64,000 nucleotides of DNA from a virus (taxonomy: Duplodnaviria; Heunggongvirae; Uroviricota; Caudoviricetes): IMG/VR virus record IMGVR_UViG_3300027747_001395; one strand, 5' to 3'. This document shows positions 3,163-64,000 of this stretch, piece by piece. Under the pieces are notes generated by a model, which saw only the letters and a program-made list of their open reading frames with translations, was not told the origin of the DNA and did no database searches. A program made the position numbers and the translations under genes. Each line of letters opens with the position of its first letter. Positions within the stretch are counted from its first letter, which is position 1.

Positions 3163-3169
3163 AGAAAAA

Positions 3170-47119: not shown

Positions 47120-47664
47120 ATATTTTCTATGTGGACCAGTCACCAGTTAAAGCGGCGCAAGCTCTAGTAGATAAACATGTTGTAAAAATGCTGGTAGAAA
47201 GCGCACAGCTTTTATCAACGGCGCATCGAGTTATTGACGGACAAGAAGTAAGACTTAAAGTCGAGAAGAATGGTAAGATCCGGAACAAAAAAGTCTGGGT
47301 TCTAAATGATGCTCGAAACGAGATTCTATATAATGCTACGCATCGCAATCATCCATCTGCCATCTGGGTTCGTCAGTCAGTAGAAAATTACAATTGGCTT
47401 GTAGAACATCTATTTGCGCTCTCAGATGAGTATACATATAGGTATGACAAGAAACATAAGACAATTACTCGTCTTGGTTTTGAGATTCAATCTCCACCGT
47501 ATGGCTTACAAAGTTGGGATTGGACTCCAATGCCTAGCTGTATGGATGACGAGTATAAAATATCAGATGATCCAGTTTTAAATTATCGAGAGTATTACCG
47601 CAGAGGTAAAGATCATTTACATAAATGGAAACGGCGAGAACCACCGAATTGGATTGATATATAA
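47116..47664 (+). CDS. denV: Pyrimidine-dimer DNA glycosylase/endonuclease V-like
   Basis: MNIFY......A....DKHVVKM..ESAQLLSTAH; HRNHPS.IWVR; YREYY. Confidence 0.72.
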   Translation: MNIFYVDQSPVKAAQALVDKHVVKMLVESAQLLSTAHRVIDGQEVRLKVEKNGKIRNKKVWVLNDARNEILYNATHRNHPSAIWVRQSVENYNWLVEHLFALSDEYTYRYDKKHKTITRLGFEIQSPPYGLQSWDWTPMPSCMDDEYKISDDPVLNYREYYRRGKDHLHKWKRREPPNWIDI

Positions 47665-48500: not shown

Positions 48501-49012
48501 TGGAATGTTCAGGTTTTGGATTATTAGAACTTATTACGGATCTTCAAGATCCTATTGGTGTGGAAATTGGTTCGGATGTAGGAGACACTACAGAGTTTCT
48601 TTTATCAAACCACACCTCGCTTAGATTAACATCAATTGATCCTTATATTGATTATATTGATTGGAACGGTAATAATCTTATAGGTAGAGATTCTACATAT
48701 AATGCATTTATCAATAGAATAGAAAAATTTGGATCTAGATTTAATCAAATACGAATGTTTTCTGATGATGCTTCTGATTTAATTGAAGATGAATCATTAG
48801 ATTTTATTTTTATTGATGGTCTTCATACATATGATCAATTAATCAAAGATTGTAATAATTACTATTCAAAAGTAAAAAGCGGCGGCATATTTTCTGGCCA
48901 TGATTATCATGCTATTTCTGAGGTTGCTAAAGCAGTAGATGAATTTTCGCTTAAAGTAAATGCTCAAATTTCACACGTCAAGTATGATGTATGGTATTGG
49001 GTGAAGCCATGA
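48500..49012 (+). CDS. Class I SAM-dependent methyltransferase (Methyltransf_24-like)
   Basis: GVEIGS..G, SIDPY, LDFIFIDGLHTY, GGIFSGHDY. Confidence 0.85.
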   Translation: MECSGFGLLELITDLQDPIGVEIGSDVGDTTEFLLSNHTSLRLTSIDPYIDYIDWNGNNLIGRDSTYNAFINRIEKFGSRFNQIRMFSDDASDLIEDESLDFIFIDGLHTYDQLIKDCNNYYSKVKSGGIFSGHDYHAISEVAKAVDEFSLKVNAQISHVKYDVWYWVKP

Positions 49013-49701
49013 AAGTTGCTTTAATACTTTCAGGTCATATGAGAGGATATAAACATACTTTTAATGATTTTAATAAGCATCTTTTAAGTAAGTATGATGT
49101 CGATACATATATCTCGACTTGGGATATTTATGGTTGGTGGTCGGCTTCGAGCAATCTTGATAAGTCTCTTGATATGATTGATATTGATGAAGTTAGAAAT
49201 TATTATAATCCAATTGCATTAAATGTTGAAACATATCACAACTTCGATGAACGGTTTTCCAATGAAGCTAAAACACCACTTTATCATAATGCTTTAAAGA
49301 ATCAAGAAATCAGAATACAAAATACACTAAGTATGTATTATAAAATACAAGATTCAATTAAACTCTTTAAAAATACAAATAAAGACTACGATATAGTGAT
49401 TCGAACAAGACCAGATTTGGTAATGGATCGTGATTATGTTTCAATTAGTCAATCTGTAAAAATTGATGGTGGGTATGGCTTTGGTGGTAGGGGAATAGGA
49501 GACCTATTCTATATGGGAATGCCTATTCAGATTGAAGCTCTTTCTGATGTATATGATAGCATCCCTAACATTATTAAAGAAACTCAATATTTTTGCCCGC
49601 ATGTAATATTGGAACAACACCTTAAAAATAAACAGATAGCTTATGAAAGAATCAATACTTTCAATATTTTTAATGGTAAATCCGGGCAATGGAGTAATTA
49701 A
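49009..49701 (+). CDS. Putative glycosyl/phosphoglycosyl transferase, paralogue 1
   Basis: KVALILSGHMR, YDIVIRTRPD. Confidence 0.6.
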   Translation: MKVALILSGHMRGYKHTFNDFNKHLLSKYDVDTYISTWDIYGWWSASSNLDKSLDMIDIDEVRNYYNPIALNVETYHNFDERFSNEAKTPLYHNALKNQEIRIQNTLSMYYKIQDSIKLFKNTNKDYDIVIRTRPDLVMDRDYVSISQSVKIDGGYGFGGRGIGDLFYMGMPIQIEALSDVYDSIPNIIKETQYFCPHVILEQHLKNKQIAYERINTFNIFNGKSGQWSN

Positions 49702-50399
49702 TGAAACTTGCAATTTGTATATCTGGTCATTTTAGAGATTATGAAACCAAAATTCAAACTCTTTTTGACAACGTATTGATCAATCACGATTATGATATTT
49801 TTGTTCATTCGTGGGATAATCACGGATTTTCATATCAAGGTGTGTGCAGAGATCTTTATCTTAAAGATGGTTTCAAAAAAGATTCACCAGAATTAAATAT
49901 TGAAGCTGTACTTGAAAAACTAAAACCTAAGAAATATATATTTGAAACATACTCTGATGTTGAAAATCAAATTAAAGAAGAAGCTTCATATTTTACAAGA
50001 ATAAACCCTTGGGAAAATCCGGAAGTTACATTATCACTACAACGTAAAATCTATCTTTGTGATAGATTGAGATATGATTTTGAAATTGAGACTAATACTA
50101 AATATGATGCTGTTATAAGAACAAGACCAGATCTTCTTTTTACTCGCAGAATTAATATACAAGATTATGATTTAAATTATATTAGTATGCCAGAAGAAGA
50201 ATCTTATACTACAGCTTCTGATACATTTGCTTTTGCTAACCCTAAACTTATGACTCAATATAGTTCTCTGTATTGCAATATGAAAGAAATCTATCATAAT
50301 ACAACCAGGACCTTTAATCCTCATTGTATGCTATATGAACATTTAAATCAGAATAAGCTAAATTATAAATTATTGCCGATGGGAATAGTAATACGATGA
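49701..50399 (+). CDS. Putative glycosyl/phosphoglycosyl transferase, paralogue 2
   Basis: KLAICISGHFR, YDAVIRTRPD. Confidence 0.6.
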   Translation: MKLAICISGHFRDYETKIQTLFDNVLINHDYDIFVHSWDNHGFSYQGVCRDLYLKDGFKKDSPELNIEAVLEKLKPKKYIFETYSDVENQIKEEASYFTRINPWENPEVTLSLQRKIYLCDRLRYDFEIETNTKYDAVIRTRPDLLFTRRINIQDYDLNYISMPEEESYTTASDTFAFANPKLMTQYSSLYCNMKEIYHNTTRTFNPHCMLYEHLNQNKLNYKLLPMGIVIR

Positions 50400-51097
50400 A
50401 AATTGCACTTTGTTTATCTGGTCAACCTAGAGCATTTGATAAGGGCTATCAATTCTATAAACAAAATTTATTTGATCATTATGATGTCGATACATATATT
50501 CATACTTGGACCAATTTAGATTCACATCTAAAAGATTCACTTGAAGACTTATATAAGCCAAAATTAATTAAATATGAAGATGAACCGATAATAGATTTCA
50601 GTAAATATACTAGAACTCCTAATATAATTAGACATCCACCGAAAGCAACATATTGTGCATTCTATTCCATATATCAATCTTCGTTATTGATGAATTCAAC
50701 ACAGATTCATTATGATTGGGTACTTAAGTCAAGAACTGATTATGCTTTAAATGTAGTAATCCCATTTGAAGAATTAGATTCAACAAAACTTCATATACCT
50801 GACTGCCGAATGGTTCCAGAAAGAGATTTTGGTAATGATCAATTTGCATTTAGTTCAAAACAAAATATGATGAGATACATGTCTACATTTGAAAATATAG
50901 ACAAATATTACGATAATGGTGCGGTTTTTATCGGAGAGAATCTCATGCAAGCTAATATCCGTGAGCATAATCTTTATGGCGAAAATCTAGTATATTGTGG
51001 AATGAATAATCCGTTCCCACCAGGAATATATAATGGAAGTTGGCATTCATTAATACGAGATGATTATGAGTTATGGCAGAAGAAATTAAAAGACTGA
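50396..51097 (+). CDS. Putative glycosyl/phosphoglycosyl transferase, paralogue 3
   Basis: KIALCLSGQPR, YDWVLKSRTD. Confidence 0.6.
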   Translation: MKIALCLSGQPRAFDKGYQFYKQNLFDHYDVDTYIHTWTNLDSHLKDSLEDLYKPKLIKYEDEPIIDFSKYTRTPNIIRHPPKATYCAFYSIYQSSLLMNSTQIHYDWVLKSRTDYALNVVIPFEELDSTKLHIPDCRMVPERDFGNDQFAFSSKQNMMRYMSTFENIDKYYDNGAVFIGENLMQANIREHNLYGENLVYCGMNNPFPPGIYNGSWHSLIRDDYELWQKKLKD

Positions 51098-51819
51098 ATG
51101 GACATTCTGGTAGTACAGTAAGTTTAATGAAAGATTCTTCCGGACTCTTTATAAGAAAAACTAACAATGTATCTAGAAATTATGAAAGAATATCGACCCT
51201 CAACAGTTTAGGATATAGTTTACCTAAACTATTGAAATATTCGGATAATATTTTAGATATGGAATACATCCAAGGATTGGATATGAAAACATATTTGATT
51301 CATAATAACACGGATAATCTTAGCAAGTTTATTCTTTCTGTGCTTAATAGTTTTTCTAAAAATTCAACAACCAAGGATTACTCCGATATTTATGAAGCAA
51401 AATTGAATGTAGTGAAGTTTAAAGACCTTCCATTTTCTAAAAATGATTTATTAGACAAATTGCCAGTTAATTTACCATCATCGACTTATCACGGTGATTT
51501 TACCTTAGAAAATTTATTATATTCAAATTCAAATTTCTATATGATTGACGCCGTGACAATCGAGTATGATTCATATATCTTTGATATTGCTAAATTAAGA
51601 CAAGATTTATCATGTGGGTGGTTTTTAAGACATACAAATGAACACATAGAAACCAAACTGATAAATTTGGAAAGTTCAATTTTAGATCAATTTCCTGAAG
51701 CCAGAAATAATGCACTATTAATTCTAATGTTACTCAGAGTATTTAATAATTGCATTGAAGGAGATTTTAACTATAAGTTTTTGTTGAAACATATAAACAG
51801 ACTTTGGACTTTTTTGTAA
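51073..51819 (+). CDS. APH/choline-kinase-like phosphotransferase
   Basis: GHSGS loop, YHGDFTLENLL, MID, DIAKL. Confidence 0.8.
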   Translation: MAEEIKRLNGHSGSTVSLMKDSSGLFIRKTNNVSRNYERISTLNSLGYSLPKLLKYSDNILDMEYIQGLDMKTYLIHNNTDNLSKFILSVLNSFSKNSTTKDYSDIYEAKLNVVKFKDLPFSKNDLLDKLPVNLPSSTYHGDFTLENLLYSNSNFYMIDAVTIEYDSYIFDIAKLRQDLSCGWFLRHTNEHIETKLINLESSILDQFPEARNNALLILMLLRVFNNCIEGDFNYKFLLKHINRLWTFL

Positions 51820-52565
51820 TGTATAACATAATATTCTTATTACCGCATCATGAAAATAAAGAAAGTCTTGAAGATACCATTTCTAATCTGTTTAAATTTA
51901 ATTCAAATATTTGCGTCTATATTAATAATGGTTCCAATGAAAACCTGGATGATTTAAATAGTGATAGAGTTTGTATAATAGACAGAAAGGTTCAATATAA
52001 AAAATTTGATACTATGATTCCATTACATATAGAATTATACGATCAAATTAAAAAAGATAATGTACATTCTGAATATGTCTGTTTATTAGCAACAAATCAA
52101 CTTTTTGTTAAATCTAATCTATATGAGCTAATGCGTAATTATGATGCTTCTTTCTTTGAACGTGAGATAGATTCAGGGTGTATATCAAGTTTATGTAATA
52201 ATCAAATATTCAGGATTTATTACGATAAACTCAATAACAATTTCAAATATCAATCCAATCCAGATGGTATGTTTTTTAAATATTCTATATTTACTGAAAT
52301 GATCGAATATTTTGATAAATTTAGAGACACACAGGTTGAATATCACGCAGATGAATTTCTATACGTTGCATATCTTTTATTCAAAAATTATTCTTTATTA
52401 GAATTTAAAAATTACAACTATTGGCAAGTTGATTGGAGAGTGAATCTAAACCCTGTGGATTTAAATGAGATAAAATCTATAGTGAAGAATGATAAATTTT
52501 ATATAGTTAAACGGATAGCAAGAAATATTAATGATGAGGCTAGAAAATATGTCAAAAATTTATAA
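51804..52565 (+). CDS. Hypothetical protein, glycosyltransferase-like
   Basis: Operon context; IVKRIARN C-terminus; weak motifs. Confidence 0.45.
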   Translation: MDFFVMYNIIFLLPHHENKESLEDTISNLFKFNSNICVYINNGSNENLDDLNSDRVCIIDRKVQYKKFDTMIPLHIELYDQIKKDNVHSEYVCLLATNQLFVKSNLYELMRNYDASFFEREIDSGCISSLCNNQIFRIYYDKLNNNFKYQSNPDGMFFKYSIFTEMIEYFDKFRDTQVEYHADEFLYVAYLLFKNYSLLEFKNYNYWQVDWRVNLNPVDLNEIKSIVKNDKFYIVKRIARNINDEARKYVKNL

Positions 52566-53595
52566 TATGGAAGTAATTGTTCCAGCTGCTGGGTTGTCAA
52601 CAAGGTTTCCTGGTATGAAACCAAAATATCTGTTATATGATTATAAGCACAATTTGATGATTTCTAACGCTATTAAACCATATTTAGATTTAAAGATCCC
52701 TGTCACTATTGGAATACTTAAAGAACATGATAATGAGTATGATGCCACCATGTTTCTTAAGCATGAATTTGGAGATTCTATAAATATTATAATTTTAGAC
52801 GAGCCAACCAAGGGCCCGGCAGATACTGTTTATCAAATACTTAAAAAAGCAAATATTAGAAATACTCAAATTTTAATTAAAGATTGTGATAGTTTCTTTG
52901 ATCATAATATAATCAAGGGTAATTATGTATGTGTATCAAGAATATCTGACCATTCTGTACTCAAGAAAATTTCTTCTAAAAGTTTTGTAATAGCAAATGA
53001 TCAACATATAATCACAGACATTATAGAAAAGCAAGTAGTGTCGAATACGTTTTGTGTTGGTGGATATTCATTTGAAAACTCTGATAACTATATTGAGGCT
53101 TATGAAGAATTACAAACTCAAAATGAAGTATTTGTTTCGGATGTGATTTCTCGCTGTATATTTAATGGTCATATTTTTTCTGAAAACTTTATAAGAAATT
53201 ACACAGATGTGGGAACTTCATCAGATTGGTTTGAATATAATGACAAGCCTGTAATTTTTTGTGATATTGACGGAACAATTATTGTAAGTCAGACAAGAGT
53301 TGGAAAGAATAATTTTCAATCAGAACCCATAGCACTTCAAAATAATGTAAATAGGCTATTGGAGTTGCAGAATTCAGGTGCTCAATTTATTTTTACGACG
53401 GCTAGACAAATTGGATATGAAAAGGTTACTAGAGAACTACTAAATAAACTAGGGTTTATCAATTATCAACTTATAATGAATCTATTGAATAGTAAGAGAA
53501 TTATTATTAATGACTATAATAAAAGTAATCCATTTCCACGAGCAATAGCAATAAACGTTCCTAGAAATAAAGATGAATTGAGTGATTATCTATGA
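52531..53595 (+). CDS. Sugar-phosphate nucleotidyltransferase fused to HAD phosphatase
   Basis: VPAAGLSTRFP..KPK, KGPADT, DCD; C-terminal FCDIDGT, FTTAR, IIND. Confidence 0.85.
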   Translation: MMRLENMSKIYNMEVIVPAAGLSTRFPGMKPKYLLYDYKHNLMISNAIKPYLDLKIPVTIGILKEHDNEYDATMFLKHEFGDSINIIILDEPTKGPADTVYQILKKANIRNTQILIKDCDSFFDHNIIKGNYVCVSRISDHSVLKKISSKSFVIANDQHIITDIIEKQVVSNTFCVGGYSFENSDNYIEAYEELQTQNEVFVSDVISRCIFNGHIFSENFIRNYTDVGTSSDWFEYNDKPVIFCDIDGTIIVSQTRVGKNNFQSEPIALQNNVNRLLELQNSGAQFIFTTARQIGYEKVTRELLNKLGFINYQLIMNLLNSKRIIINDYNKSNPFPRAIAINVPRNKDELSDYL

Positions 53596-54263
53596 GTAAA
53601 AATTGTTTCATTATAACATCTTCAGTTAAACCTTTAATGGGTTTGATTTCCCACGAACAAAGATATAAACAGACCATAGACTGTTTAACTCAATTGAGAA
53701 TAAAATTGCCAAATGAAATCTTGGTTTTGGCTGATTGTTCGGTTATTCCATTATCAGATAAAGAAAAAATGGAATTAGAATCTAAAGTAGACTTATTCAT
53801 TGATCTTTCTATGTGTGAGAGAACATTTAATTATTCTAAACAAGGTTTAAAAAGTCATGCAGAAAATTCTTTATTATATACTGCAATAACAAAATTGAAA
53901 GAAGAAATATTTTTTAAAGACTGCAAAAGGATCTTTAAATTTTCTTCTAGATCATGGCTTACTGAACATTTCAATTTAAGTGATTATGATAATACTTATG
54001 GTAAGTATGTATTTAAAAAGCGAATACCTACATGGATGTCATCAGCTAACATAACTGATCTTCTTATTACTAGAATGTATTCTTTTTGTTCGTCCTTAAC
54101 TAATGACTATTTGGAAGTAATTGACAATAATATGAAAGTTCTAAATAGTTTAGATACAGAGCACGCACATTTTCTTAATACACCTAAAGACAAATTGATA
54201 GAATTTAATAATATTCATTGTTGGGGTGTTTTGGCAGGGAACGGAAATATAGAACATTATTAG
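53592..54263 (+). CDS. Hypothetical protein, glycosyltransferase-like
   Basis: FIITSSV...RYKQT, RIFKFSSR; operon context. Confidence 0.45.
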   Translation: MSKNCFIITSSVKPLMGLISHEQRYKQTIDCLTQLRIKLPNEILVLADCSVIPLSDKEKMELESKVDLFIDLSMCERTFNYSKQGLKSHAENSLLYTAITKLKEEIFFKDCKRIFKFSSRSWLTEHFNLSDYDNTYGKYVFKKRIPTWMSSANITDLLITRMYSFCSSLTNDYLEVIDNNMKVLNSLDTEHAHFLNTPKDKLIEFNNIHCWGVLAGNGNIEHY

Positions 54264-54266
54264 AAA

Positions 54267-54274
54267 TATAAATA
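54267..54274 (+). promoter_or_regulatory. Late promoter
   Basis: Intergenic TATAAATA. Confidence 0.8.
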
Positions 54275-54300: not shown

Positions 54301-55512
54301 GTGGCATCTACAGGGGCTATGGCTTGGAATAAACACTTTAAAGATAAGTGTCCTATTCTTACTACTATAAAAAAAGAAAGTATTGTCTATAATCAAGATA
54401 ATAAACCTGTAGGAAGAGTCAGAGCAAATCAGCCTGTTATTGCACTTGAATCTAAAATATATTTAGAAAAATATCCTGTTCAATTAACAGACAAACGAAT
54501 TGTTTACGTCACTTTTAATAATATACAAAAACCTAAAAGTAAAAGAGTCTCTGGTATTAAATTAAAGCCACAAGACTTTAAAGCATTTCAAAATAAGACA
54601 TTATGGAAATCTAAAGATTTAGCTAAAGCATTAGTTGATGAAATAGAAGAACGTCAAGATCTTGATCCAGCATTAAAAACATACTTAATTGCTATTACAA
54701 AGTATTATGCTAAATTGAATAATACTTCACCACAAGATGTAGATAGTGTTTATTCTTCATCCATGCCTGGTTTGGCTGAAATACAAAAAGATTATGGTGA
54801 AATTCTTGGAGCATTAGCAGCAATAAATTATGGTTTACTTTCTCAGACTGGAATTAGATTAAATGAGTCTAATTTTTTGGAATTTCCTTTAAGAGGCAAT
54901 GAACCTATAGTTGACTATTATATTCATACAGGAAAGAATAAATTGTCAATTTCTGCTAAAAGCGGTTCGACTACAAATACATTAAAACCTGCCGATGTGA
55001 TAACGTTATTAGGTAAAAATAATTCAAAATGGAATACTAAACCTATCTATAAAGTTATGGAATTAGTTCGAGATAAATCTGTAACTGAATTTCCATTTTA
55101 CGCTTTAAATCTAATTAAACCAAATATTATCACAAATAAAGCACTTCAAGAAGTTAGTTCTAAATTTAAAAATGTAAATTTTCAAAGTGATAAGTATCAA
55201 TATCATCTTTTTGATAGTGTTTACAAATATTTAGGATTAAATATCACGAAACCTTTAAAAATTGGTGAATTATTTTATCGGGTAGAAAAATCAATTGTAA
55301 ATAGTTTAAACGAAAAATATTCACCAGATGACATATTTAAAGATGCAATAAATGGTTTGGTCATTTATGTTAAATTTCAAATCTCTTCTCAAAATAAACA
55401 CGGGAAATTTGAGGTGATGACTTCTGATATGATGAAACCAAATAAAAAAATAAAATGGAGATCTAAAAATTATGCAGGAAAGGCTGCAGATAAAGTCGGA
55501 TTCCAAACATGA
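54301..55512 (+). CDS. Late protein with restriction-endonuclease-like PD-(D/E)xK motif
   Basis: DYGEILGA...EPIVDYY...ISAKSG; AT-rich. Confidence 0.5.
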   Translation: MASTGAMAWNKHFKDKCPILTTIKKESIVYNQDNKPVGRVRANQPVIALESKIYLEKYPVQLTDKRIVYVTFNNIQKPKSKRVSGIKLKPQDFKAFQNKTLWKSKDLAKALVDEIEERQDLDPALKTYLIAITKYYAKLNNTSPQDVDSVYSSSMPGLAEIQKDYGEILGALAAINYGLLSQTGIRLNESNFLEFPLRGNEPIVDYYIHTGKNKLSISAKSGSTTNTLKPADVITLLGKNNSKWNTKPIYKVMELVRDKSVTEFPFYALNLIKPNIITNKALQEVSSKFKNVNFQSDKYQYHLFDSVYKYLGLNITKPLKIGELFYRVEKSIVNSLNEKYSPDDIFKDAINGLVIYVKFQISSQNKHGKFEVMTSDMMKPNKKIKWRSKNYAGKAADKVGFQT

Positions 55513-55550: not shown

Positions 55551-56156
55551 ATGGTAAAACAAAGATTCAAAGAGTTTATAGGTTCTGGTACACTTACAAT
55601 CTTCGATATTGATGAGACCCTCTTCCATACAAAGGCTAAAGTCGGTGTGGTTAAGGACGGCAAAGTCATACGAAAATTAGATAACCAAGAATTTAACACA
55701 TACGAGCGTAAACCTGGGGAAACCTATGACTTCGGCGAATTTCGATCCGCCGAAGTTTTTCGTAGAACTTCGGTCCCAGTAGTTCGGATGATTGAAAAGG
55801 CTAAGGCAGTTGTCAAAGCTAAAAACAATCCACACAGCCGTGCTATTATCTGTACTGCCCGTGCTGACTTTGATGACAAGCATATGTTTCTTCAGACGTT
55901 CCGTGATCATGGAATTCCAATTGATGATATGCACGTCGAGCGTGCTGGTAATCTTGGTCTTGATTCAAGTGCTGAAGCCAAGAAGGTTATATTTCGTCGT
56001 TATATAAATACTAAAAATTATACTAAACTCCGTCTATATGATGATGCAATGAGTAATCTAACTGCATTTCTGGATCTTGAAGATGAATATCCACATGTCA
56101 AGTTTGAAGCTTATTTTGTGAAGCCAGACGGCTCTACCAAGGTTATTAAACGATGA
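55551..56156 (+). CDS. HAD-superfamily phosphatase (polynucleotide 3'-phosphatase-like)
   Basis: FDIDETL, CTAR, YDDA; N-terminus QRFKEFI. Confidence 0.8.
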   Translation: MVKQRFKEFIGSGTLTIFDIDETLFHTKAKVGVVKDGKVIRKLDNQEFNTYERKPGETYDFGEFRSAEVFRRTSVPVVRMIEKAKAVVKAKNNPHSRAIICTARADFDDKHMFLQTFRDHGIPIDDMHVERAGNLGLDSSAEAKKVIFRRYINTKNYTKLRLYDDAMSNLTAFLDLEDEYPHVKFEAYFVKPDGSTKVIKR

Positions 56157-56308
56157 AAACATTTGCTGAATTTAAAGAAGAACTGTCCATTAGAGATGCT
56201 TCTGGTAAGCCTACAAAAGTAAAGAATGTGCCTATCAGAATGGCTGATGGAACAATTAAAAATCTACCACCTGGTAAGTCTGGCTCATCTGGCGGAGGTG
56301 GTGACTGA
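56153..56308 (+). CDS. 51-aa internal-protein-like ORF with capsid-targeting N-terminus
   Basis: MKTFAEFKEE; manually read; ATGA coupling. Confidence 0.7.
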   Translation: MKTFAEFKEELSIRDASGKPTKVKNVPIRMADGTIKNLPPGKSGSSGGGGD

Positions 56309-57267
56309 TGCAACGCTTTAAATCTTTCATTACTGAGGCTTCAATTCGCCAAGGCCTTCCTCATCTCTACTCCACCAAAACAGCTGCTGGTAATGACACA
56401 CCTTCACTTTCTACCGACCAGTTCCATCATCTCACAAAAGGTGGTAAAGTTTTAATCCACCATATAACTGAAAAGACCGATGGTCAGACTTTTAAGATGG
56501 GTCATGACGAACACGGCTTTTATACTCAGCACTCTGGATCTGGTGACGAAAAGATTCGTACAGCTCAAGGTCATATTGATCGAGCCAAGCGCCGGGCACA
56601 AGAAACTGGTAAGCCATATGACCCTACCGCACCTGAAGCATTTGCTAAATTCCATGATGCTCTTCATAAGAATAAAGCATTACAAGCTCATTTAGCATCA
56701 GAATATAAGCGCACAGGTAACGAAGTTGTAGTGAAGGGTGAAGCATTTAATAATGCTCTTGCTCGCCCATCTGACACAAAGAAGGGTGAAGTCAAGTTTG
56801 TTCATACTTCATACAAGAAGCCAAGAGGTTTAGGTACATTTGTCATTCATTCAAGACTACCTGAAAATCAAGGGCATGATACGGAGCACTTCAAGAAACA
56901 TCTATCAGATTCTAATATTAACTTTGAAGATGATAAGATTGCTCACAAGCCAGGTCATGTTGATGTTGCAGATGAAGTAAAAGAGTTTCATGGACTCAAT
57001 CACGAGCTTATTAATTCACGAACCACACCAAAAAATAAAGCAGCAAAGACCGCAGAGCTTGACAAGTTTAATGCAGTCAAGAAAAAAGTTAGTGATAAAG
57101 TAACCAGACACCTCGGATCACTTGGTATTAAGAATAAATTTGGTTCTGGAACCGAAGGTCTTGTTGTTCATCCATCTGCTGCAAATCCAGAAGCACCTCG
57201 CTTCAAAGCCATCAATCCTGCTTTCAAGGAAGCAAAAGCCAAAAGTTCAAGATTCGGAGCCAAGTAA
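56308..57267 (+). CDS. Ligase-like covalent nucleotidyltransferase with capsid-targeting N-terminus
   Basis: MQRFKSFITE; TEKTDG (KxDG), KGEAF, EGLVV, FKAIN. Confidence 0.7.
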   Translation: MQRFKSFITEASIRQGLPHLYSTKTAAGNDTPSLSTDQFHHLTKGGKVLIHHITEKTDGQTFKMGHDEHGFYTQHSGSGDEKIRTAQGHIDRAKRRAQETGKPYDPTAPEAFAKFHDALHKNKALQAHLASEYKRTGNEVVVKGEAFNNALARPSDTKKGEVKFVHTSYKKPRGLGTFVIHSRLPENQGHDTEHFKKHLSDSNINFEDDKIAHKPGHVDVADEVKEFHGLNHELINSRTTPKNKAAKTAELDKFNAVKKKVSDKVTRHLGSLGIKNKFGSGTEGLVVHPSAANPEAPRFKAINPAFKEAKAKSSRFGAK

Positions 57268-59093
57268 TGCAGAGATTTAAAGCGTTTATTCTAGAGGGTG
57301 GCAACATCCGTGTCGGACCAAAAGGTCAGGAAACATCTGCTGCGGCATTTCCGGTAACTGCAGGTACTCGCCATCAGGTCCGCCATGACATTCACCATGC
57401 TTTAACAGCAATTGGTGACACATTTCATAAGGAACACGGCGAGCATCTATTCGGTCAGGATCATCAGCGCCTTCATGATGCTACTGCATATACCGGCTCT
57501 ACTCACGATCTCATGGGTCACCACGTATCACATGCTGAATTTGCAAAGCATAAACCAATGGTTGGTGACGTTGACACTCAGGTGACACCAGAACATAAAG
57601 AAAAACTAGCTACTCATCTTACACCAGGCAGAAAGTTTGGTAAGTATACAGTTGTCGGAACCAAGAAGCATGGTAATGAAATCTCTGCAGTTATGCGTCA
57701 TGAGAATGGTGAACATCATCAGTTTGATTTCCAAGGTGTAAATCACCCAGGTTCGGAAGCTTCGAGATTCTTACATGGATCAAACTGGGAAGACACAAAG
57801 GCAGGAATTAAAGGTGCTCACCACAAAATCCTTCTAAATGCGGTTGCCGGTGATACTCATAAGTTCTCAATTACACACGGTCTTCGCTCACGTACTGATG
57901 AATCTGATCCTGGTGTACAACACCCACATGAAGTTACCAAGAAGCTATTTGGTGCTAATGCCGATCATAATAATATCCATTCATTCCATGGTGTAACTCA
58001 ACTGATCAAGAAGCACATCCCTAAAGAACAGCACCAGGCAATCTACGATAAGTTTAAGGGTGCCGTATCTAAAATGAAGGGTATGGATCATGGTCCTGCT
58101 CTTGCTCATATGCGTAAGCATCTCGGTGTGGTTGATACGGTTAATGAAGCTAGAGAAGCACAAGATCCTGGTGAGAATCATGAAACGACCATAGGTCGCA
58201 AACTTGCAGCACATCGACTTATTAATAGCTTAACTGATAAGAATGAGAAAGATGTAATAAAGCATAGATATATTCATGGTCGTACATTAGAACAGACTGC
58301 TAATGTTTTAGGTCTAAGAAATAGAGAACATGCTAGACAAATTGAAGCCAAAGCTTTACGTAGTATGAGAAATAGATCAGATCTATACGATAAAGATGGT
58401 GCACGTGATTATGTAAAAGAAGCTATGAAAGATGATCCCTGCTGGACAGGTTATAAAATGATCGGCAAAAAGAAAAAGAACGGCAAGGAAGTTCCTAACT
58501 GCGTTCCTGTTCACGAGGAAGAAACACATCACGTCCACGTCTCATATCTAGGCGCTTCACCATTCCCACACATGGGACACCATACTGATATTGGCGGTTC
58601 AATGGAAGCAGCACCACACGGCAAGAAGTTTATCGGTCTATCTGGTAAGTCTGATGCATTCTCAGATAAGGAACGTGAAGATATTGCCAACAAGCAGTCA
58701 GGTGGTAAGGTTGATTTCCAAACAGTAAAGTCACCAGGTGTTACAATTGCCAAGGCTCATGCGAGTATGCCTGCTACTGGTAGAAAGGTTCTTCATCTTC
58801 ACTTTGGGCATGACCGTCAGAAGTTTGCGGAAGGTCTTAAGCACTCAGTAGAGAATGGCAAGATTCCAGAGCTTCAAGGTCACAAGTTTGACGAAGTTCA
58901 TGTTCATCTACCAAAAGATGAAAATCGTTCACATGGTCTATCAGGTACAAAGATGCGAACTGCTGCGGAATCCGGCGACCTAAATACATTTAAGAAACAT
59001 GTCGGTCCTAACTTCTCCGATAAGGAAGTTAAAGGTCTTATGGATCGAACACGTGTAGGTTTAATGGCAGGCAAGATCAAGGTAAAAAGATGA
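57267..59093 (+). CDS. Multidomain cargo protein: Pol-beta-like NTase, sigma70 region 4, Cys module, HIGH-type cytidylyltransferase-like domain
   Basis: MQRFKAFILE; GS...GDVD; LTD.NE.DVI..RY...TLEQ.A..LG..RE..RQIEAKALR; DPCW..NCVP; PHMGH, GHDR, SGTKMR. Confidence 0.75.
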   Translation: MQRFKAFILEGGNIRVGPKGQETSAAAFPVTAGTRHQVRHDIHHALTAIGDTFHKEHGEHLFGQDHQRLHDATAYTGSTHDLMGHHVSHAEFAKHKPMVGDVDTQVTPEHKEKLATHLTPGRKFGKYTVVGTKKHGNEISAVMRHENGEHHQFDFQGVNHPGSEASRFLHGSNWEDTKAGIKGAHHKILLNAVAGDTHKFSITHGLRSRTDESDPGVQHPHEVTKKLFGANADHNNIHSFHGVTQLIKKHIPKEQHQAIYDKFKGAVSKMKGMDHGPALAHMRKHLGVVDTVNEAREAQDPGENHETTIGRKLAAHRLINSLTDKNEKDVIKHRYIHGRTLEQTANVLGLRNREHARQIEAKALRSMRNRSDLYDKDGARDYVKEAMKDDPCWTGYKMIGKKKKNGKEVPNCVPVHEEETHHVHVSYLGASPFPHMGHHTDIGGSMEAAPHGKKFIGLSGKSDAFSDKEREDIANKQSGGKVDFQTVKSPGVTIAKAHASMPATGRKVLHLHFGHDRQKFAEGLKHSVENGKIPELQGHKFDEVHVHLPKDENRSHGLSGTKMRTAAESGDLNTFKKHVGPNFSDKEVKGLMDRTRVGLMAGKIKVKR

Positions 59094-59347
59094 AAACATT
59101 CTGTCAGTGGATTAAGGAAAGTTTACCAACAAATAGTACTGGTGGTGGAATCAGAGGTCTAGGTAATGTCACTGGAGTACCTGGTGGCACTATTTCTAGT
59201 TATGCCGCATTTAATGCATCTGATACTAGTGTTAGCGACGCTGTGAATGCTATGCATGCTACCACTAATAATACTGGTGATGTTAAAGATAGTAATACTG
59301 CTGACACAAAAAATAATATCTTGAAAGTAGGTAAAGGTAAGAAATAA
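59090..59347 (+). CDS. Small internal-protein-like ORF with capsid-targeting N-terminus
   Basis: MKTFCQWIKE then SLPTNSTGGGIRGLG. Confidence 0.65.
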   Translation: MKTFCQWIKESLPTNSTGGGIRGLGNVTGVPGGTISSYAAFNASDTSVSDAVNAMHATTNNTGDVKDSNTADTKNNILKVGKGKK

Positions 59348-60255
59348 TGGCACAATGGAGAATTGACCAACAGAAGAAAGTTGAACAGAACAGTAAGACA
59401 CTATATGAATTGGGGATGATTGCTACAGTAAATGGTGATCCAGTTACTAATGTGAATCCGTTCCCAGTAACACTTGGTTCCAATAATATTACAATCACTG
59501 GAAATGTTAATGTTGGAACAACTGTACAGGTGTCTAGTACTCCTGAAAATCCAATACACAGCCATATTACTGAAGTTGGTAATAGTGGTATTCTAACAGT
59601 TTCGTATATGCCTATTAGTGGTAATGTAGTAATTACATCAGGCAATCTAAATGCAAATGTTACTGGTATTGTTAACGTAGGCAACTTCCCTGCATCACAG
59701 AATGTTGTTGTAACTTCTGGTAATATAAATATTACTAGTACTGTTACTGTTATTACAACACAAGAAGCGGGTGATTTATATTCCTTTAATAATCATGCAA
59801 TAAATACGAATCGTGGTTGGACTATGGACGATACTATGCGTCCTGTTGTTAGTTTTAGAAATAATAGTGCAAGTGTTGCGGATTTAATAAAAATTATTGA
59901 ATATGAAATTGGAAACAACAACGCTAATCAAAGCACTATTGTGTATGAGTGGTATGAAGGTGATCTAACAATAACTGGAGCAGCTATACCTGCTTGGACT
60001 ACGTTTGGTGTTCACAGTCAATATCGTGTATATCAAGACAAATATTCTTCTAATCAAGGAAACACGTTTACTCCAAATGGTTCAATAATGAGACACAGTG
60101 GTATCATTATTGGTAAGAATACATCTGGTGATGAAGGCCCAAAATCAATGCATGGCGGTGGAACTCCAAATATGCTTACTTTGTGTATGAGACGTGTTGA
60201 TAACTCAACCAAACTAGACGTATGGTTTGCATTTACTATTAAGGAACTAGCATAA
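59347..60255 (+). CDS. Putative virion structural protein (beta-rich)
   Basis: Repeated GNVNV/SGNV motifs; TPENPIHSHITEVG. Confidence 0.6.
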   Translation: MAQWRIDQQKKVEQNSKTLYELGMIATVNGDPVTNVNPFPVTLGSNNITITGNVNVGTTVQVSSTPENPIHSHITEVGNSGILTVSYMPISGNVVITSGNLNANVTGIVNVGNFPASQNVVVTSGNINITSTVTVITTQEAGDLYSFNNHAINTNRGWTMDDTMRPVVSFRNNSASVADLIKIIEYEIGNNNANQSTIVYEWYEGDLTITGAAIPAWTTFGVHSQYRVYQDKYSSNQGNTFTPNGSIMRHSGIIIGKNTSGDEGPKSMHGGGTPNMLTLCMRRVDNSTKLDVWFAFTIKELA

Positions 60256-60256
60256 A

Positions 60257-60550
60257 ATGAAAACATTAAAAGCTTTTATATTAGAATGTATCTTATTAGA
60301 ACGAGGTGAGGATTCAAAAGGATATAAAAGATCCACAGAAGATGGGGCTGGGTTAACTAGAAAAGGCGCTAAAGCTGCAGGTGTTAAAACAGCTGTTACA
60401 ACACCACCAAGTAAACTAGACCCAAATGGTAAAGCAGCAAAAAGACGTAAGTCATTCTGCGCTCGTATGAGTGGTGTGCCTGGTCCAATGAAAGATGAAA
60501 AAGGTCGTCCAACTCGTAAGGCTGCATCACTAAAGCGTTGGAACTGTTAA
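60257..60550 (+). CDS. Basic internal-protein-like ORF (DUF6321-like) with capsid-targeting N-terminus
   Basis: MKTLKAFILE; GAGLT.KG, RRKSFCARM, RWNC. Confidence 0.7.
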   Translation: MKTLKAFILECILLERGEDSKGYKRSTEDGAGLTRKGAKAAGVKTAVTTPPSKLDPNGKAAKRRKSFCARMSGVPGPMKDEKGRPTRKAASLKRWNC

Positions 60551-60788: not shown

Positions 60789-63700
60789 ATGGACAAAATA
60801 AACGAAATTACTGAAGGTGATTACAAATTAAAAAAGACCGGACTAGAAAAAACTATTGCTCACCCAGAAGGTAAAGCAACTTATGAAGTTCATCATAATG
60901 GACAAATTATTGGTAAAATAAAGCCATATAGTTCATATCTTGATAAGAAAAAACCTGGTTCTAGAATAGTATCAAGTCGAAAAAATATTACTAGTTATTC
61001 GTTCGATTTCAATGGTAATCATGGCCCAAGGTCTCATGAAATGGGTACTTTTGTTTATATGGGTCACTCTAATCCTAAAGTGGCACTTCAACGAATGTCT
61101 AAAGAACATCAGACATTTAAAGCAAAACAAAAGAATGAAGAAGTAAACCTAGATGAAAATATTTTAAACATTCAGCAACGTCAAAAGCGTGCTATTGAAA
61201 TGCGTAGAAATGAACCAAGAATTGAAATTGCCAGAGAACGAGCTAAGAAAAAAGTGGCGCCTGAAGCAAATATCAAGAAGCGTTCATATGCAATGGCAAG
61301 ACAACTTGTTCGTAGCAGACTTACTAATGTTTCACAAGCTGAATATGCTAAGATGGGCCCATCTGAAAAGATGGCAATTGACCGAGTTATCGAAAAGAAA
61401 GGACCTGCTATCAAGAAATTAGCAATGCGTCTAATTCCAAAAGTCAAGAAGGCTGAATATGCCCGACTTCAATCTTATATGCATGGACAGCAAATGGCTA
61501 ACCATGGAGCACCGGAAGGAAATCACGTGTCAGAATCTTTAAATAACCTGTTCCTAGAATACTTTGGTGATTCCGCACCAGGTAATAGTGGATCCACAGG
61601 TGAGCGTTCAGATAGTCCAATTAATTCTAGCGGTCGCAAGATTGCTAAATCAAATACTAAAGGTGATTCTCAGGGTAACGCCAAAGGTGGCACAAAGACT
61701 AAAGGATCTCCCATTGTCCAATATGGCAAGTTCGGTGAAGATCTAGAAGTTGATAGTCCTGTTTTTAAAGCTCTTATTAAAAAGGCTGATGCTACTAATC
61801 TTGATCTAGAGATTCTTGGTGAAGTCTATAATCGTGGGCTTGAAGCTTGGAACGAGGATTGCTCAGTATCACAACAGCAGTACGCATTTGCTCGTGTAAA
61901 CTCATATATCAATCAGGGTAGAACATACTTTAATGAAGATGCTGATTTGCACGAACTTTCAAAGTCAACACTTAAATCGTACCTAGCTAAAACTAAAGAA
62001 GGTGGAAAACAATATCCAACACCACTATCATTTAGAAAATCAATGGAGTCTCAGGGTATTGCTAAAGGTAAACTTGGACTAAAATATAAAAGACGTCCAG
62101 TACCTGATGTGAAAATTAAGGCTACAAATGAAGAAGTAGAGCTTCAAGAAGATGAAGCTCCAGCTAAGGTAGGTGACAAAGTTTATCTCAAAACAAAAGT
62201 ACACGCTAATTCCCCACATACTGGTAAAGTAAAAAAAGTTACACCTACTCATGTTCATTTAGATACTGGTCATGGAATTTATAAAGCACCTCATTCTGCT
62301 ATTACTAAAGATTATAAGCAATCTCATCTTCATGTTAACTACGGTAGTAAGAATGAAGAAGTAGAAGTAACTGAAGGTAAATTTACTGCTCATGTAAGCA
62401 AGAATGGTCGTAGTCATGGAACAGTTAAGCTTTCTGCTATTGATCGAGAAAATGCTGAATATCAGATGAAGAAGCATCCTTATTACAAGCACTTTACAGT
62501 TGATAAAGTTGTAAAAGAAGAAAATCTTGAAGAAAAAAGAGGTCTGTGGGATAACATTCATGCTAAGCAAAAAAGAATCAAAGCTGGTTCGGGTGAACGT
62601 ATGCGTAAACCAGGTTCGGAAGGAGCACCATCTAATTCTGATTTAAAAGCTGCTCAGGAATCAGTAGACTTTGAAGAATCAAAGAATACGCCATATGTAA
62701 AAGCATATTTTGAAAAAGGTCAGACAAAGCAAAATTCATGGAAAGCTATGAACAAGCATGGTCATGTCAAGCACTTTGGTCTTCCTTTTAAGAAAGCAGC
62801 TGAATTACATGCTGGTCTTTCTGAGGGAGTACAATCAGATTTTTTAGATGAAATGGCCGGAGCGAATATGGATCGCCGTGCTCTGGTCTCACACATTACA
62901 AATAAAGGATGGCAGAAGAAGGCAAGTGGTGGAAGCGGCGACCATGATGTATTCACACATCCAAAGTCTACACACCGTCTAGCAGTTCCTAGGCATAACA
63001 AGCTTAAGGCACCTTTAATTCTTGATGTGCTCAAGAAGTCCAAAATTATGGACAAGACCAATGAGGAAATAGAATCAGTAGATGAACATATAGTCAAGGT
63101 CAAGAGCGGTTACCGTCTAGTTTCTAAATCATCTGGTAAGAATCTAGGTACTTATCCTACTAAGGAGGGTGCTGAGAAACGTGAAAAGCAAGTTCAATAC
63201 TTCAAGCACCAGAACGAAGAAGTAGAACTTGATGAGGTTCTGTTAAGTTCATTTAAAAAGACTGAAAAGTTTGGCGGTAAAGATCTAGGTAAACATATCT
63301 CTACTATTGAAGGTACTAAGCATATTGGCACACTAGAAAATGGACATCATGTTTATCATAGTTATGATCCAAAAGATAAAATGCATGACTATCATGTAGT
63401 AGACCCAAAGACCAAGCGAATCAACATTCACCTTACAACCAAGCAGCAGGCGGCTCCTGGTGCTGAAGAAGTTAGTGTTCTAACTGCTAATGACAAATCA
63501 CTTGGTGCACATCATCTCTACCAGCACCTTGTGACAAAGCACAACAAGATTATCTCATCTAATGACCAGTCACCAGGTGCTAGAAGTGTATGGGCAAAAG
63601 TTGGAAAGCATAAAGGCATTCATATTCATGGATATGATCCTATCAGCAAGACAACATTTCACATGAAGCCATCTGATGATGAAGAATACATAGATAGAGA

Positions 63701-64000
63701 TAATAAGGAAGTAAATACGGTCAAAGCAGATCGTAAACTTACTGCTCCAAAATCCAAAGATCGTGCCGCACATGATGCAGAATTAGAAGATCTTGATAAA
63801 AAGAAATATACATACATTGTAATGCACAAAAAGAGTGGTCTCAAGGAAGATCTTGAATCATATCTTTCAGAATCAACACTACCTAAAAGTTATACCAAAG
63901 GTCTCACTCCTGCTGAAATAAAAGCAAAAAAAGCACATATTGAAAGAAATAATAAACTTTCCGATAGGGATCCAGATGCTTATAAAGATATGCCTGGAGA
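60789..64000 (+). CDS. Large modular internal head polyprotein (>1070 aa, runs off the window) containing HicA-like and GNAT-like modules
   Basis: Manually translated with no stop from ATG 60789 to the window end; GAGG RBS; repeated acidic NEEVxLxE-like linkers; absent from ORF track because it is 3'-open. Confidence 0.88.
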   Translation, partial: MDKINEITEGDYKLKKTGLEKTIAHPEGKATYEVHHNGQIIGKIKPYSSYLDKKKPGSRIVSSRKNITSYSFDFNGNHGPRSHEMGTFVYMGHSNPKVALQRMSKEHQTFKAKQKNEEVNLDENILNIQQRQKRAIEMRRNEPRIEIARERAKKKVAPEANIKKRSYAMARQLVRSRLTNVSQAEYAKMGPSEKMAIDRVIEKKGPAIKKLAMRLIPKVKKAEYARLQSYMHGQQMANHGAPEGNHVSESLNNLFLEYFGDSAPGNSGSTGERSDSPINSSGRKIAKSNTKGDSQGNAKGGTKTKGSPIVQYGKFGEDLEVDSPVFKALIKKADATNLDLEILGEVYNRGLEAWNEDCSVSQQQYAFARVNSYINQGRTYFNEDADLHELSKSTLKSYLAKTKEGGKQYPTPLSFRKSMESQGIAKGKLGLKYKRRPVPDVKIKATNEEVELQEDEAPAKVGDKVYLKTKVHANSPHTGKVKKVTPTHVHLDTGHGIYKAPHSAITKDYKQSHLHVNYGSKNEEVEVTEGKFTAHVSKNGRSHGTVKLSAIDRENAEYQMKKHPYYKHFTVDKVVKEENLEEKRGLWDNIHAKQKRIKAGSGERMRKPGSEGAPSNSDLKAAQESVDFEESKNTPYVKAYFEKGQTKQNSWKAMNKHGHVKHFGLPFKKAAELHAGLSEGVQSDFLDEMAGANMDRRALVSHITNKGWQKKASGGSGDHDVFTHPKSTHRLAVPRHNKLKAPLILDVLKKSKIMDKTNEEIESVDEHIVKVKSGYRLVSKSSGKNLGTYPTKEGAEKREKQVQYFKHQNEEVELDEVLLSSFKKTEKFGGKDLGKHISTIEGTKHIGTLENGHHVYHSYDPKDKMHDYHVVDPKTKRINIHLTTKQQAAPGAEEVSVLTANDKSLGAHHLYQHLVTKHNKIISSNDQSPGARSVWAKVGKHKGIHIHGYDPISKTTFHMKPSDDEEYIDRDNKEVNTVKADRKLTAPKSKDRAAHDAELEDLDKKKYTYIVMHKKSGLKEDLESYLSESTLPKSYTKGLTPAEIKAKKAHIERNNKLSDRDPDAYKDMPG

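What the first reader, a model, noticed from the sequence alone, without database searches (positions are those of the whole stretch)
55551..59093. Candidate virion-delivered RNA/nucleotide repair kit: HAD phosphatase, ligase-like NTase, Pol-beta NTase and HIGH NTase
Seen: three near-adjacent genes supply a DxDxT phosphatase, a KxDG ligase-type nucleotidyltransferase (motifs I, III, IV and V recognisable), a GS..GDVD Pol-beta-type NTase and a cytidylyltransferase-like domain (PHMGH, SGTKMR). Established: 3'-phosphatase plus ligase heals and seals anticodon-nuclease-cut tRNA, as T4 PseT/Rnl1 do, and Pol-beta NTases include CCA-adding and signalling enzymes. Inference: a pre-formed, injected repair or nucleotide-signal-manipulating module that works even when host translation has been shut down by defence.
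Basis: inference. Interest (0 to 1): 0.8.

Follow-up and report, generated by a model that had tools for sequence, protein, structure and literature searches.

The report
Phage head-loaded cut, fill, seal kit
An uncultured freshwater T4-like phage has a late operon that joins a swappable restriction-enzyme-like nuclease to a phosphatase, an unusual ligase-fold enzyme, a stripped-down repair-polymerase-like enzyme and an NAD-synthase-like enzyme, several tagged for loading into the virus head; it most likely mends or protects broken nucleic acid ends (DNA more likely than tRNA), but no activity has been measured.

Summary
Observation confirmed. All four domains are real: AlphaFold models match Rnl2/Rnl5-type RNA ligases (no OB domain; distant kin of DUF6267), X-family polymerase palm plus thumb, and NMNAT/PPAT-type HIGH enzymes. 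Catalytic residues are invariant in homologues. Ligase, Pol-beta and HIGH domains are fused in 16 of 120 homologues and co-occur in 35 of 35 loci. Head loading is well supported by inference: 130 of 135 Pol-beta domains begin right after a Glu, nearly always a T4 gp21-type hydrophobic-x-Glu site, and cyanophage HIGH relatives occur in virion proteomes. The tRNA-repair reading is weaker. The HAD is optional (12 of 35 loci), the phage has ordinary Rnl1 and Rnl2 genes elsewhere, and the polymerase looks PolX-like, not CCA-adding. Best reading (0.4): a nick/gap heal-fill-seal kit for DNA, paired with a variable nuclease. The HIGH domain, the ligase's steadiest partner, stays unexplained. This scan has noted the PolX-ligase pair (at least 8 times) and the nuclease-ligase-HIGH trio (once) on other DNA; I found no paper describing the module.

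The parts
54267..54274 (+). T4-type late promoter TATAAATA heading the operon
   Evidence: Sequence. The core ATAAATA lies near the start of 82 of 104 nuclease-slot genes in related loci against a 5% background; gp41 1/32, RecA 0/23, DenV 0/53. A close strain's match begins exactly here. Promoter activity inferred.
54301..55512 (+).
   Evidence: E167, D205, S218, K220 are four of five invariant columns in its 9-member family. Motif in 15 of 27 slot families against 10 of 168 other families, p=3e-9. A profile of three other slot families has invariant E, D, E-x-K and hits Holliday junction resolvase 7bgs at E=0.01. Fold of this protein not modelled; no Pfam or PDB hit.
55551..56156 (+). HAD phosphatase, PNKP-phosphatase-like, optional member
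   Evidence: DxDxT, Thr102, Lys144/145, Asp-Asp 164-165 conserved; PHROG 415 E=6.8e-7; 42 of 42 HAD loci have a ligase-fold gene nearby but only 12 of 35 ligase loci have the HAD.
56003..56010 (+). Second TATAAATA inside the HAD gene, possible internal late promoter
   Evidence: Sequence only; not tested.
56153..56308 (+). 51-aa ORF with head-targeting-type leader, probable small head cargo
   Evidence: Leader pattern; no family match.
56308..57267 (+). Ligase-fold nucleotidyltransferase (Rnl2/Rnl5-like adenylation domain, no OB domain), distant relative of DUF6267; leader residues 1-10
   Evidence: invariant motifs I, III, IV; motif V Lys at least 90%; fold; DUF6267 link: feature score 0.94; hhalign 87%, E=4e-6; leader in 48 of 71 relatives.
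57267..58148 (+). Pol-beta-superfamily domain with PolX-like palm and thumb; leader ends I-L-E directly before a conserved Gly-Gly-Asn
   Evidence: G77-S78, D101, D103, D154; model of 90%-identical P0124; ASFV PolX Z 7.8 over 162 of 176 residues, T. thermophilus PolX Z 8.2; E before GGN in 130 of 135.
58149..58421 (+). Swappable sigma70 region-4 cassette between V-N-E and V-K-E sites
   Evidence: Pfam PF04545 E=6e-10; absent from most homologues, whose core is about 490 aa; replaced by 367 other bases in a close strain.
58422..58517 (+). Small CWxGY cargo module ending at a V-H-E site
   Evidence: PHROG 9737 and others, unknown function; present in only 6 of 120 homologues.
58521..59093 (+). 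HIGH-superfamily nucleotidyltransferase, NMNAT/PPAT-like, kin of the cyanophage 'cytidyltransferase'
   Evidence: invariant H, G, H, G-x-D-R, R; NadM 2qjt Z 11.8, PPAT 11.5, NMNAT 11.3; PHROG 3041 E=5e-7; cyanophage relatives; fused to Pol-beta in 118 of 120.

Best explanation
A late operon makes a nucleic-acid end-processing kit, most likely for nicks and short gaps in DNA. SHOWN by computation: the folds, intact catalytic residues, fusion and co-occurrence of ligase, Pol-beta and HIGH domains, and a variable nuclease-like gene at the head of the operon. INFERRED: (1) the ligase and Pol-beta/HIGH proteins enter the prohead through T4-type leaders and are cut by gp21 after hydrophobic-x-Glu, freeing separate domains and an N-terminal Gly-Gly-Asn on the polymerase; (2) after injection, or during packaging, the HAD removes a 3'-phosphate where present, the PolX-like domain fills the gap, possibly with ribonucleotides, and the OB-less ligase adenylates Lys56 and seals, as proposed for Deinococcus Rnl5; (3) the breaks come from host defence nucleases or from the phage's own variable nuclease, which would be aimed at host or rival phage DNA; (4) the HIGH domain supplies or recycles an NAD-like adenylate donor, or handles adenylated ends. 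Step 4 is the weakest.
For: Ligase matches nick-sealing RNA ligases best and lacks an OB domain. [quoted passage not shown] Pol-beta model covers palm and thumb of PolX. PolX-ligase fusion is a tested repair design in a giant virus (PMC5537341). Nuclease-like gene in 27 of 35 loci and first in the operon; same four genes in cultured Xanthomonas phage BUDD and Vibrio phage Va1 in other orders. Six of ten genomes tested have no detected ATP-dependent DNA ligase and none of five an NAD-dependent one. Leader statistics and E-before-GGN rule fit T4 capsid targeting and gp21 specificity (PMC9026906). HIGH relatives were detected in virions of S-SZBM1, S-SCSM1 and S-CREM2.
Against: No activity measured. 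The steadiest partner of the ligase is the HIGH domain, for which this model has no established job; DUF6267-type loci have HIGH but no Pol-beta. The Pol-beta domain lacks the Arg-Arg after Gly-Ser of true PolX enzymes (PolX motif from my own knowledge). Ligase Z-scores are modest (9.3) and do not tell RNA from DNA. In S-SZBM1 virions the HIGH protein was listed but the DUF6267 and nuclease-slot proteins, which lack leaders there, were not. Campylobacter phage CP220 has the Pol-beta gene with no ligase or HIGH within 7 kb; Bellamy has DUF6267 with no annotated HIGH within 4.5 kb. Part of the linkage may be inherited gene order near gp41.
Confidence: 0.4

Rival explanations
1. RNA repair: HAD heals 3' ends, the Pol-beta domain restores lost bases (RlaP- or CCA-like), the ligase rejoins tRNA cut by host anticodon nucleases, delivered ready-made.
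For: All five best structural matches of the ligase are RNA ligases. HAD resembles the PNKP phosphatase; a Zeta/AAA_33 P-loop kinase lies near in 10 of 64 loci and is fused to HIGH in an Atlas cluster. Ligase plus Pol-beta (RlaP) RNA repair is predicted for jumbo phages (PMC7824862).
Against: HAD in 12 of 35 loci only; Rnl1 and Rnl2-type genes already present at 29677-30894 and 33098-34168; thumb-bearing PolX-like fold; no role for HIGH or the nuclease.
Confidence: 0.2
2. New end-capping or nucleotide-transfer chemistry: HIGH makes an NAD-like dinucleotide or acts directly on a nucleic-acid end, and the ligase-fold enzyme transfers the nucleotide to phage DNA ends, nicks or a host target, protecting the genome from the variable nuclease or from host exonucleases.
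For: HIGH accompanies the ligase in 35 of 35 loci and in 13 of 13 DUF6267-type loci, 12 of which lack Pol-beta; direct ligase-HIGH fusions exist (P0241, Va1_166, L064, L135). A HIGH enzyme, PPAT, can use the 5' end of an RNA as substrate (PMC10761072). Nicotinamide phosphoribosyltransferase is present in only 2 of 10 genomes, so HIGH is usually not part of a phage NAD salvage pair.
Against: No direct precedent; a gp21-type site separates the domains, so they need not act as one enzyme.
Confidence: 0.2
3. The genes are neighbours mainly because they are late head cargo. HIGH is a stand-alone NMNAT that rebuilds NAD after host NADase defence; ligase and polymerase are a separate pair; the nuclease slot is a hot spot for selfish or host-DNA-degrading nucleases.
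For: NMNAT is the best fold match and the reading given in cyanophage papers. Unrelated cargo (sigma4, CWxGY) is inserted in the same polyprotein through the same linkers, so fusion alone is weak evidence here.
Against: The core fusion is kept in 118 of 120 homologues while other cargo turns over; the order is permuted yet the set persists; NMN-supplying enzyme usually absent.
Confidence: 0.12

Closest known systems
Rnl5/Rnl2 nick-sealing ATP-dependent RNA ligases: Naegleria NgrRnl (5COT), T. brucei REL1 (1XDN), T4 Rnl2 (2HVQ), Deinococcus DraRnl (PMC5397189)
   Same: Adenylation-domain fold (Z 8.3-9.3 over 185-200 residues), KxDG lysine, motif III and IV glutamates, motif V lysine, no OB domain.
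   Different: 12-14% identity; no Pfam RNA_ligase hit for the window protein; no extra N- or C-terminal substrate domain; head leader; tied to HIGH and PolX-like partners.
Pfam DUF6267 (PF19782) and the T4-like cyanophage 'cytidyltransferase' (PHROG 3041; Syn9 gp183-gp184)
   Same: Distant homologues of the ligase and HIGH domains; same order nuclease-slot, ligase, HIGH, head cargo; about 470 cultured phage records hold DUF6267; HIGH protein found in virions.
   Different: No function assigned and no paper names DUF6267; those loci lack the Pol-beta domain; the window ligase falls below the Pfam model.
Viral base-excision repair kits: ASFV Pol X with its ligase; PgVPolX of Phaeocystis globosa virus (PMC5537341)
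   Same: Minimal PolX palm and thumb with a ligase, fused or adjacent.
   Different: Those use OB-bearing DNA ligases and an AP endonuclease; here the ligase is RNA-ligase-like, the polymerase lacks the Gly-Ser-x-Arg-Arg motif, and a HIGH enzyme and variable nuclease are added.
T4 tRNA repair: PseT (Pnkp) plus Rnl1; predicted RlaP plus RNA ligase systems (PMC7824862)
   Same: HAD phosphatase, ligase-fold enzyme, Pol-beta partner, sometimes a P-loop kinase.
   Different: The ligase is not Rnl1; HAD optional; ordinary Rnl1 and Rnl2 genes exist separately in this phage; late operon with head leaders.
Phage NAD salvage NadV/NadM/NadR (PMC9503650)
   Same: HIGH domain with NadM-like fold; sometimes fused to a P-loop kinase as in NadR.
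   Different: The paper reports that every NadM phage has NadV; here the NadV family is in 2 of 10 genomes and no Nudix fusion was seen.
T4 internal proteins IPI-III and Alt (capsid targeting sequence, gp21 cut after L/I-x-E; PMC9026906)
   Same: Ten-residue leader with aromatic residues at 4 and 7 and hydrophobic-x-Glu at 8-10; own gp21 at 1407-2078.
   Different: Cargo is a set of nucleotidyltransferases in a polyprotein; packaging not measured for this phage.

Membership tests
Covalent nucleotidyltransferase (ligase/capping) superfamily | Motif I KxDG lysine plus motifs III, IV, V | tested here: met
   K56, D58, E145, E283, G284 invariant and K300 at least 90% in 61 distant homologues
Covalent nucleotidyltransferase (ligase/capping) superfamily | Adenylation-domain fold | tested here: met
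   Nearly all of the top 35 structural matches are ligases or capping enzymes, Z up to 9.3
Covalent nucleotidyltransferase (ligase/capping) superfamily | Covalent lysyl-NMP intermediate | not testable with these tools
   Needs an adenylation assay
ATP- or NAD-dependent DNA ligases, mRNA capping enzymes | C-terminal OB domain after motif V | tested here: not met
   Protein ends about 19 residues after motif V with one helix
T4 Rnl1 / Rnl2 (Pfam PF09511, PF09414) | Match to the family model | tested here: not met
   No Pfam hit at E up to 1; three distant relatives give sub-threshold PF09414 hits
DUF6267 (PF19782) | Pfam match over cut-off | tested here: not met
   No hit
DUF6267 (PF19782) | Remote homology and shared context | tested here: met
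   hhalign 87%, E=4e-6 over 161 columns; Atlas feature score 0.94; same operon slot
X-family DNA polymerase | Three catalytic aspartates and Gly-Ser motif | tested here: met
   G77-S78, D101, D103, D154 conserved
X-family DNA polymerase | Palm plus thumb fold | tested here: met
   ASFV PolX Z 7.8, rmsd 3.7, 162 of 176 residues; Pol beta Z 8.0. Z is middling and was scored inside a two-domain model
X-family DNA polymerase | Arg-Arg after Gly-Ser that binds the triphosphate (motif from my own knowledge) | tested here: not met
   Positions are variable and non-basic, followed by a helical insert
X-family DNA polymerase | Template-directed gap filling | not testable with these tools
   Needs assay
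CCA-adding enzymes / RNA tailing enzymes | Family match or fold match beyond the palm | tested here: inconclusive
   No Pfam or NCBIfam hit; TUTases align over about 100 palm residues only; CCA enzymes not among the top 50 rows
HIGH nucleotidyltransferases (cytidylyltransferase-like) | HxGH and C-terminal S-x-T-x-x-R motifs on a Rossmann-like fold | tested here: met
NMNAT (NadM/NadD/NadR) | NMN specificity | tested here: inconclusive
   NMNAT and PPAT matches tie within 1 Z unit at 12-14% identity
Phage NAD salvage (NadV + NadM) | NadV/Nampt in the same genome | tested here: not met
   2 of 10 related genomes; this phage's whole genome was not available
T4 Pnkp/Rnl1 tRNA repair | 5'-kinase and 3'-phosphatase regularly with an Rnl1 ligase | tested here: not met
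   HAD 12 of 35, kinase 10 of 64, ligase not Rnl1
PD-(D/E)xK nucleases (ORF 54301-55512) | Conserved E...D...(D/E/S)xK core | tested here: met
   E167, D205, S218, K220 invariant; slot enrichment p=3e-9
PD-(D/E)xK nucleases (ORF 54301-55512) | Restriction-endonuclease fold | tested here: inconclusive
   Not modelled; own family has no PDB hit; sister slot families hit a Holliday junction resolvase at E=0.01
T4 internal head proteins | N-terminal targeting leader ending in L/I-x-E | tested here: met
   Ligase and Pol-beta/HIGH proteins; 48/71 and 58/87 relatives against 1/26 gp41 and 0/24 RecA. Not met for the window's nuclease; HAD has the aromatic pattern without the Glu
T4 internal head proteins | Presence in virions and cleavage by gp21 | not testable with these tools
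   Only distant HIGH relatives have proteomic support

The most novel reading that the evidence does not exclude
A widespread, undescribed conflict module of T4-like phages, carried by most marine cyanophages: a rapidly swapped restriction-type nuclease is the weapon, and a head-delivered, protease-matured ligase-HIGH core (with PolX-like, phosphatase and kinase add-ons) uses an NAD-like dinucleotide or end-adenylation chemistry not yet known, to reseal or cap the phage's own DNA.
Probability: 0.22. Interest if true: 0.88.

Novelty: new variant of a known kind. Interest (0 to 1): 0.64.

Why it matters
DUF6267 and the 'cytidyltransferase' are carried by hundreds of sequenced T4-like cyanophages and relatives, the latter is repeatedly found in virions, and neither has a tested function; several of these phages have no recognised ligase. 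Reading them as a ligase-fold core with a variable nuclease and optional polymerase, phosphatase and kinase makes that question testable in cultured phages (Syn9, S-SZBM1, BUDD, Va1). It would add a class of injected enzymes beyond T4 Alt and IPI, and could yield a compact OB-less ligase and a minimal polymerase.

Tried and rejected
Pfam, NCBIfam and PDB sequence searches gave nothing for the ligase, Pol-beta or HIGH domains of the window. No whole genome is held, so NadV, DNA ligase and Rnl counts come from relatives. Complex prediction of ligase with HIGH returned no verdict (score 0.00); it is not evidence either way. Profile comparison of the window's nuclease family with 18 other slot families found no link (best probability 3%), so their grouping rests on motif, position and one weak PDB hit. 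No RNA holder was listed for the stretch. DenV-like glycosylase as part of the kit: rejected, it lies 7 kb upstream here and has no late promoter in 53 loci. DNA ligase or capping enzyme: rejected, no OB domain. Sigma4 and CWxGY as core parts: rejected, they are swappable inserts. Literature: no paper with DUF6267; the jumbo-phage and NAD surveys did not describe this set in the passages read; the S-CRM01 and Syn9 papers were not held. Locus counts are dereplicated at 90% ligase identity but are not phylogenetically independent.
Full report
Setting. The window is part of an uncultured T4-like phage: prohead protease, scaffold and major capsid genes lie at 1407-4595, and a gp21-type protease is confirmed by Pfam. 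The best sequencing holders are freshwater metagenomes. No whole genome is held.

Observation. Standard libraries see little: PHROGs gives a weak polynucleotide-kinase hit for the HAD and a weak cytidyltransferase hit for the C-terminal domain, and Pfam finds only a sigma70 region-4 stretch inside the 608-aa protein. I therefore tested each call by conservation and structure.

Ligase-fold protein (56308-57267). It has 236 close and 220 distant-search relatives. In 61 distant sequences with 24% mean column identity the invariant columns are K56, D58, E145, E283 and G284, that is motifs I, III and IV, with motif V K300 nearly invariant. The AlphaFold model (pLDDT 91) matches Naegleria Rnl5 (Z 9.3), REL1 (8.9), T4 Rnl2 (8.8) and Trl1 ahead of DNA ligases and capping enzymes. 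The chain ends shortly after motif V, so there is no OB domain. It is a remote relative of DUF6267, a family found in about 470 cultured phage records, mostly cyanophages, and named in no paper of the library.

Pol-beta and HIGH protein (57267-59093). Homologues show a core of about 490 aa, Pol-beta plus HIGH, in 118 of 120 cases; the window's extra 118 residues are two inserts. One of them, the sigma4 cassette, is replaced by other DNA in a close strain. A model of a 90%-identical core matches NadM, PPAT and NadD for the C-terminal domain (Z 10-12, tied) and X-family polymerases for the N-terminal one, over palm and thumb (160-185 residues, Z 7.4-8.2), whereas RNA-tailing enzymes match only the palm (about 100 residues). 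Three catalytic aspartates are kept, but the Arg-Arg that follows Gly-Ser in true PolX enzymes is not. It is therefore PolX-like, not a filed member.

The module. Fifteen of 120 homologues are ligase-Pol-beta-HIGH triple fusions and one has the order ligase-HIGH-Pol-beta; Pol-beta-ligase-HIGH and ligase-HIGH forms also occur. In 35 dereplicated ligase loci with enough flank, HIGH and Pol-beta were present in 35, a nuclease-like gene in 27 and the HAD in 12. All 42 HAD-anchored loci had a ligase-fold gene, mostly of the DUF6267 type, and those had HIGH but no Pol-beta. The constant core is ligase plus HIGH; polymerase, phosphatase and a Zeta/AAA_33 kinase (10 of 64 loci) are add-ons. Cultured Xanthomonas phage BUDD and Vibrio phage Va1 carry Pol-beta, nuclease-like, ligase and HIGH genes in other orders, and Synechococcus phages show a large gene, DUF6267 and cytidyltransferase in a row. 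Exceptions exist: CP220 has Pol-beta alone, S-CRM01 and Bellamy have looser arrangements.

The missed gene. A TATAAATA late promoter at 54267 precedes a 403-aa ORF at 54301. Four of the five invariant columns of its family are E167, D205, S218 and K220, the PD-(D/E)xK core. About 20 divergent families fill this slot; phages with identical HAD proteins carry different ones. The motif is in 15 of 27 slot families against 10 of 168 others (p=3e-9), and a profile of three slot families hits a Holliday junction resolvase (E=0.01). The late-promoter core sits at 82 of 104 such genes against 5% background. This turnover looks like conflict, as in type II restriction enzymes (my inference). The fold of the window's own copy was not modelled.

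Packaging. T4 internal proteins are targeted by a ten-residue leader and cut by gp21 after L/I-x-E (PMC9026906). Such a leader is on 48 of 71 ligases, 58 of 87 Pol-beta proteins and 37 of 39 freshwater DUF6267 proteins, against 1 of 26 helicases and 0 of 24 recombinases; five of the six matches in the whole window lie at 56153-60257. The conserved Gly-Gly-Asn that opens the Pol-beta domain follows Glu in 130 of 135 homologues, with a hydrophobic residue two places before the Glu, also inside fusions; four others start Met-Gly-Gly-Asn. Both routes expose the same N-terminal glycine, which suggests that it matters. In S-SZBM1 the leader-bearing cytidyltransferase was detected in virions, while the leaderless DUF6267 and upstream proteins were not listed; two more cyanophage proteomes list the same kind of protein, and the authors allow for carry-over. 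The window's nuclease has no leader and its HAD lacks the Glu, so co-delivery of all five is not shown.

Mechanism. I favour DNA nick and gap repair (0.4): 3'-phosphate removal, gap filling, sealing by an Rnl5-like ligase. Deinococcus Rnl5 offers a precedent, being needed for genome reassembly and proposed to seal nicks left by a ribonucleotide-incorporating polymerase (PMC5397189), and a viral PolX-ligase fusion has been shown to repair DNA (PMC5537341). Six of ten related genomes have no detected ATP-dependent DNA ligase. tRNA repair (0.2) is possible, but ordinary Rnl1 and Rnl2-type genes are already in this window. A new HIGH-ligase chemistry (0.2) best explains the tightest linkage; PPAT acting on RNA 5' ends shows that a HIGH enzyme can take a polynucleotide (PMC10761072). 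Stand-alone NAD synthesis (0.12) lacks its usual partner in 8 of 10 genomes. None of these steps has been measured.

Novelty. The parts belong to known superfamilies and work-alike kits exist, so I class it as a new variant. I found no paper on the set. Earlier unchecked notes of this scan describe the PolX-DUF6267 pair at least eight times and the nuclease-DUF6267-HIGH trio once on other DNA; I had reached both readings before looking (notes), and they are not independent evidence. What this locus adds is all five parts in one operon, the ranking of core against optional parts, and the Glu-before-Gly-Gly-Asn rule.

Noticed in passing
window 29677-30894 and 33098-34168: Canonical Rnl1 (PF09511 E=5e-30) and Rnl2-type (PF09414 E=1e-10) RNA ligases, with two metallophosphoesterases and an HD protein at 36127-38106: the ordinary RNA-repair set of this phage.
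   Followed up: partly
window 60789-64000: Long late polyprotein of basic modules joined at hydrophobic-x-Glu linkers, including a HicA-like domain (Pfam E=6e-5) and DUF5824.
   Followed up: no
window 47685-54263: AT-rich (GC 0.28-0.32) glycosyltransferase island between the DenV-like gene and the late promoter; a close strain's match stops at the promoter, so the island appears swappable.
   Followed up: partly
window 47116-47664 and 46715-47119: Pyrimidine-dimer glycosylase (PF03013) and a cytidine-deaminase-like gene; the glycosylase often lies directly before the nuclease slot in relatives but outside the late operon.
   Followed up: partly
L047:1334-2344 and relatives (family f62, PHROG 4687): A leader-bearing 330-aa protein of unknown function often inserted between HAD and ligase.
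   Followed up: no
L008:3651-4625, L002:6018-6998, L029:3505-4638: A second class of nuclease-like proteins that do carry head leaders (one family 10 of 10) and sit directly before the ligase; L008 has both classes. Candidates for injected nucleases.
   Followed up: partly
L127:9420-10568, L035:5249-6946, L104:6998-13606: Zeta/AAA_33-type P-loop kinase next to or fused with HIGH; L104 encodes a 2202-aa protein with ligase, Pol-beta, HIGH and kinase domains.
   Followed up: partly
L003:6980-8146 (Campylobacter phage CP220 CPT_0100): Stand-alone Pol-beta homologue with leader and late-promoter core in cultured Firehammervirus phages, no ligase or HIGH nearby.
   Followed up: partly
window 19343-20104, 25280-26110, 22938-23723: Probable homing-endonuclease-type ORFs judged from their N-terminal sequence (two on the minus strand), and a single tRNA-Met at 23725-23799.
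   Followed up: no
L138:10885-11322 and relatives (family f4): A ferritin/Dps-like gene recurs just downstream of the cargo genes in 97 loci (family call from my reading of the consensus).
   Followed up: no
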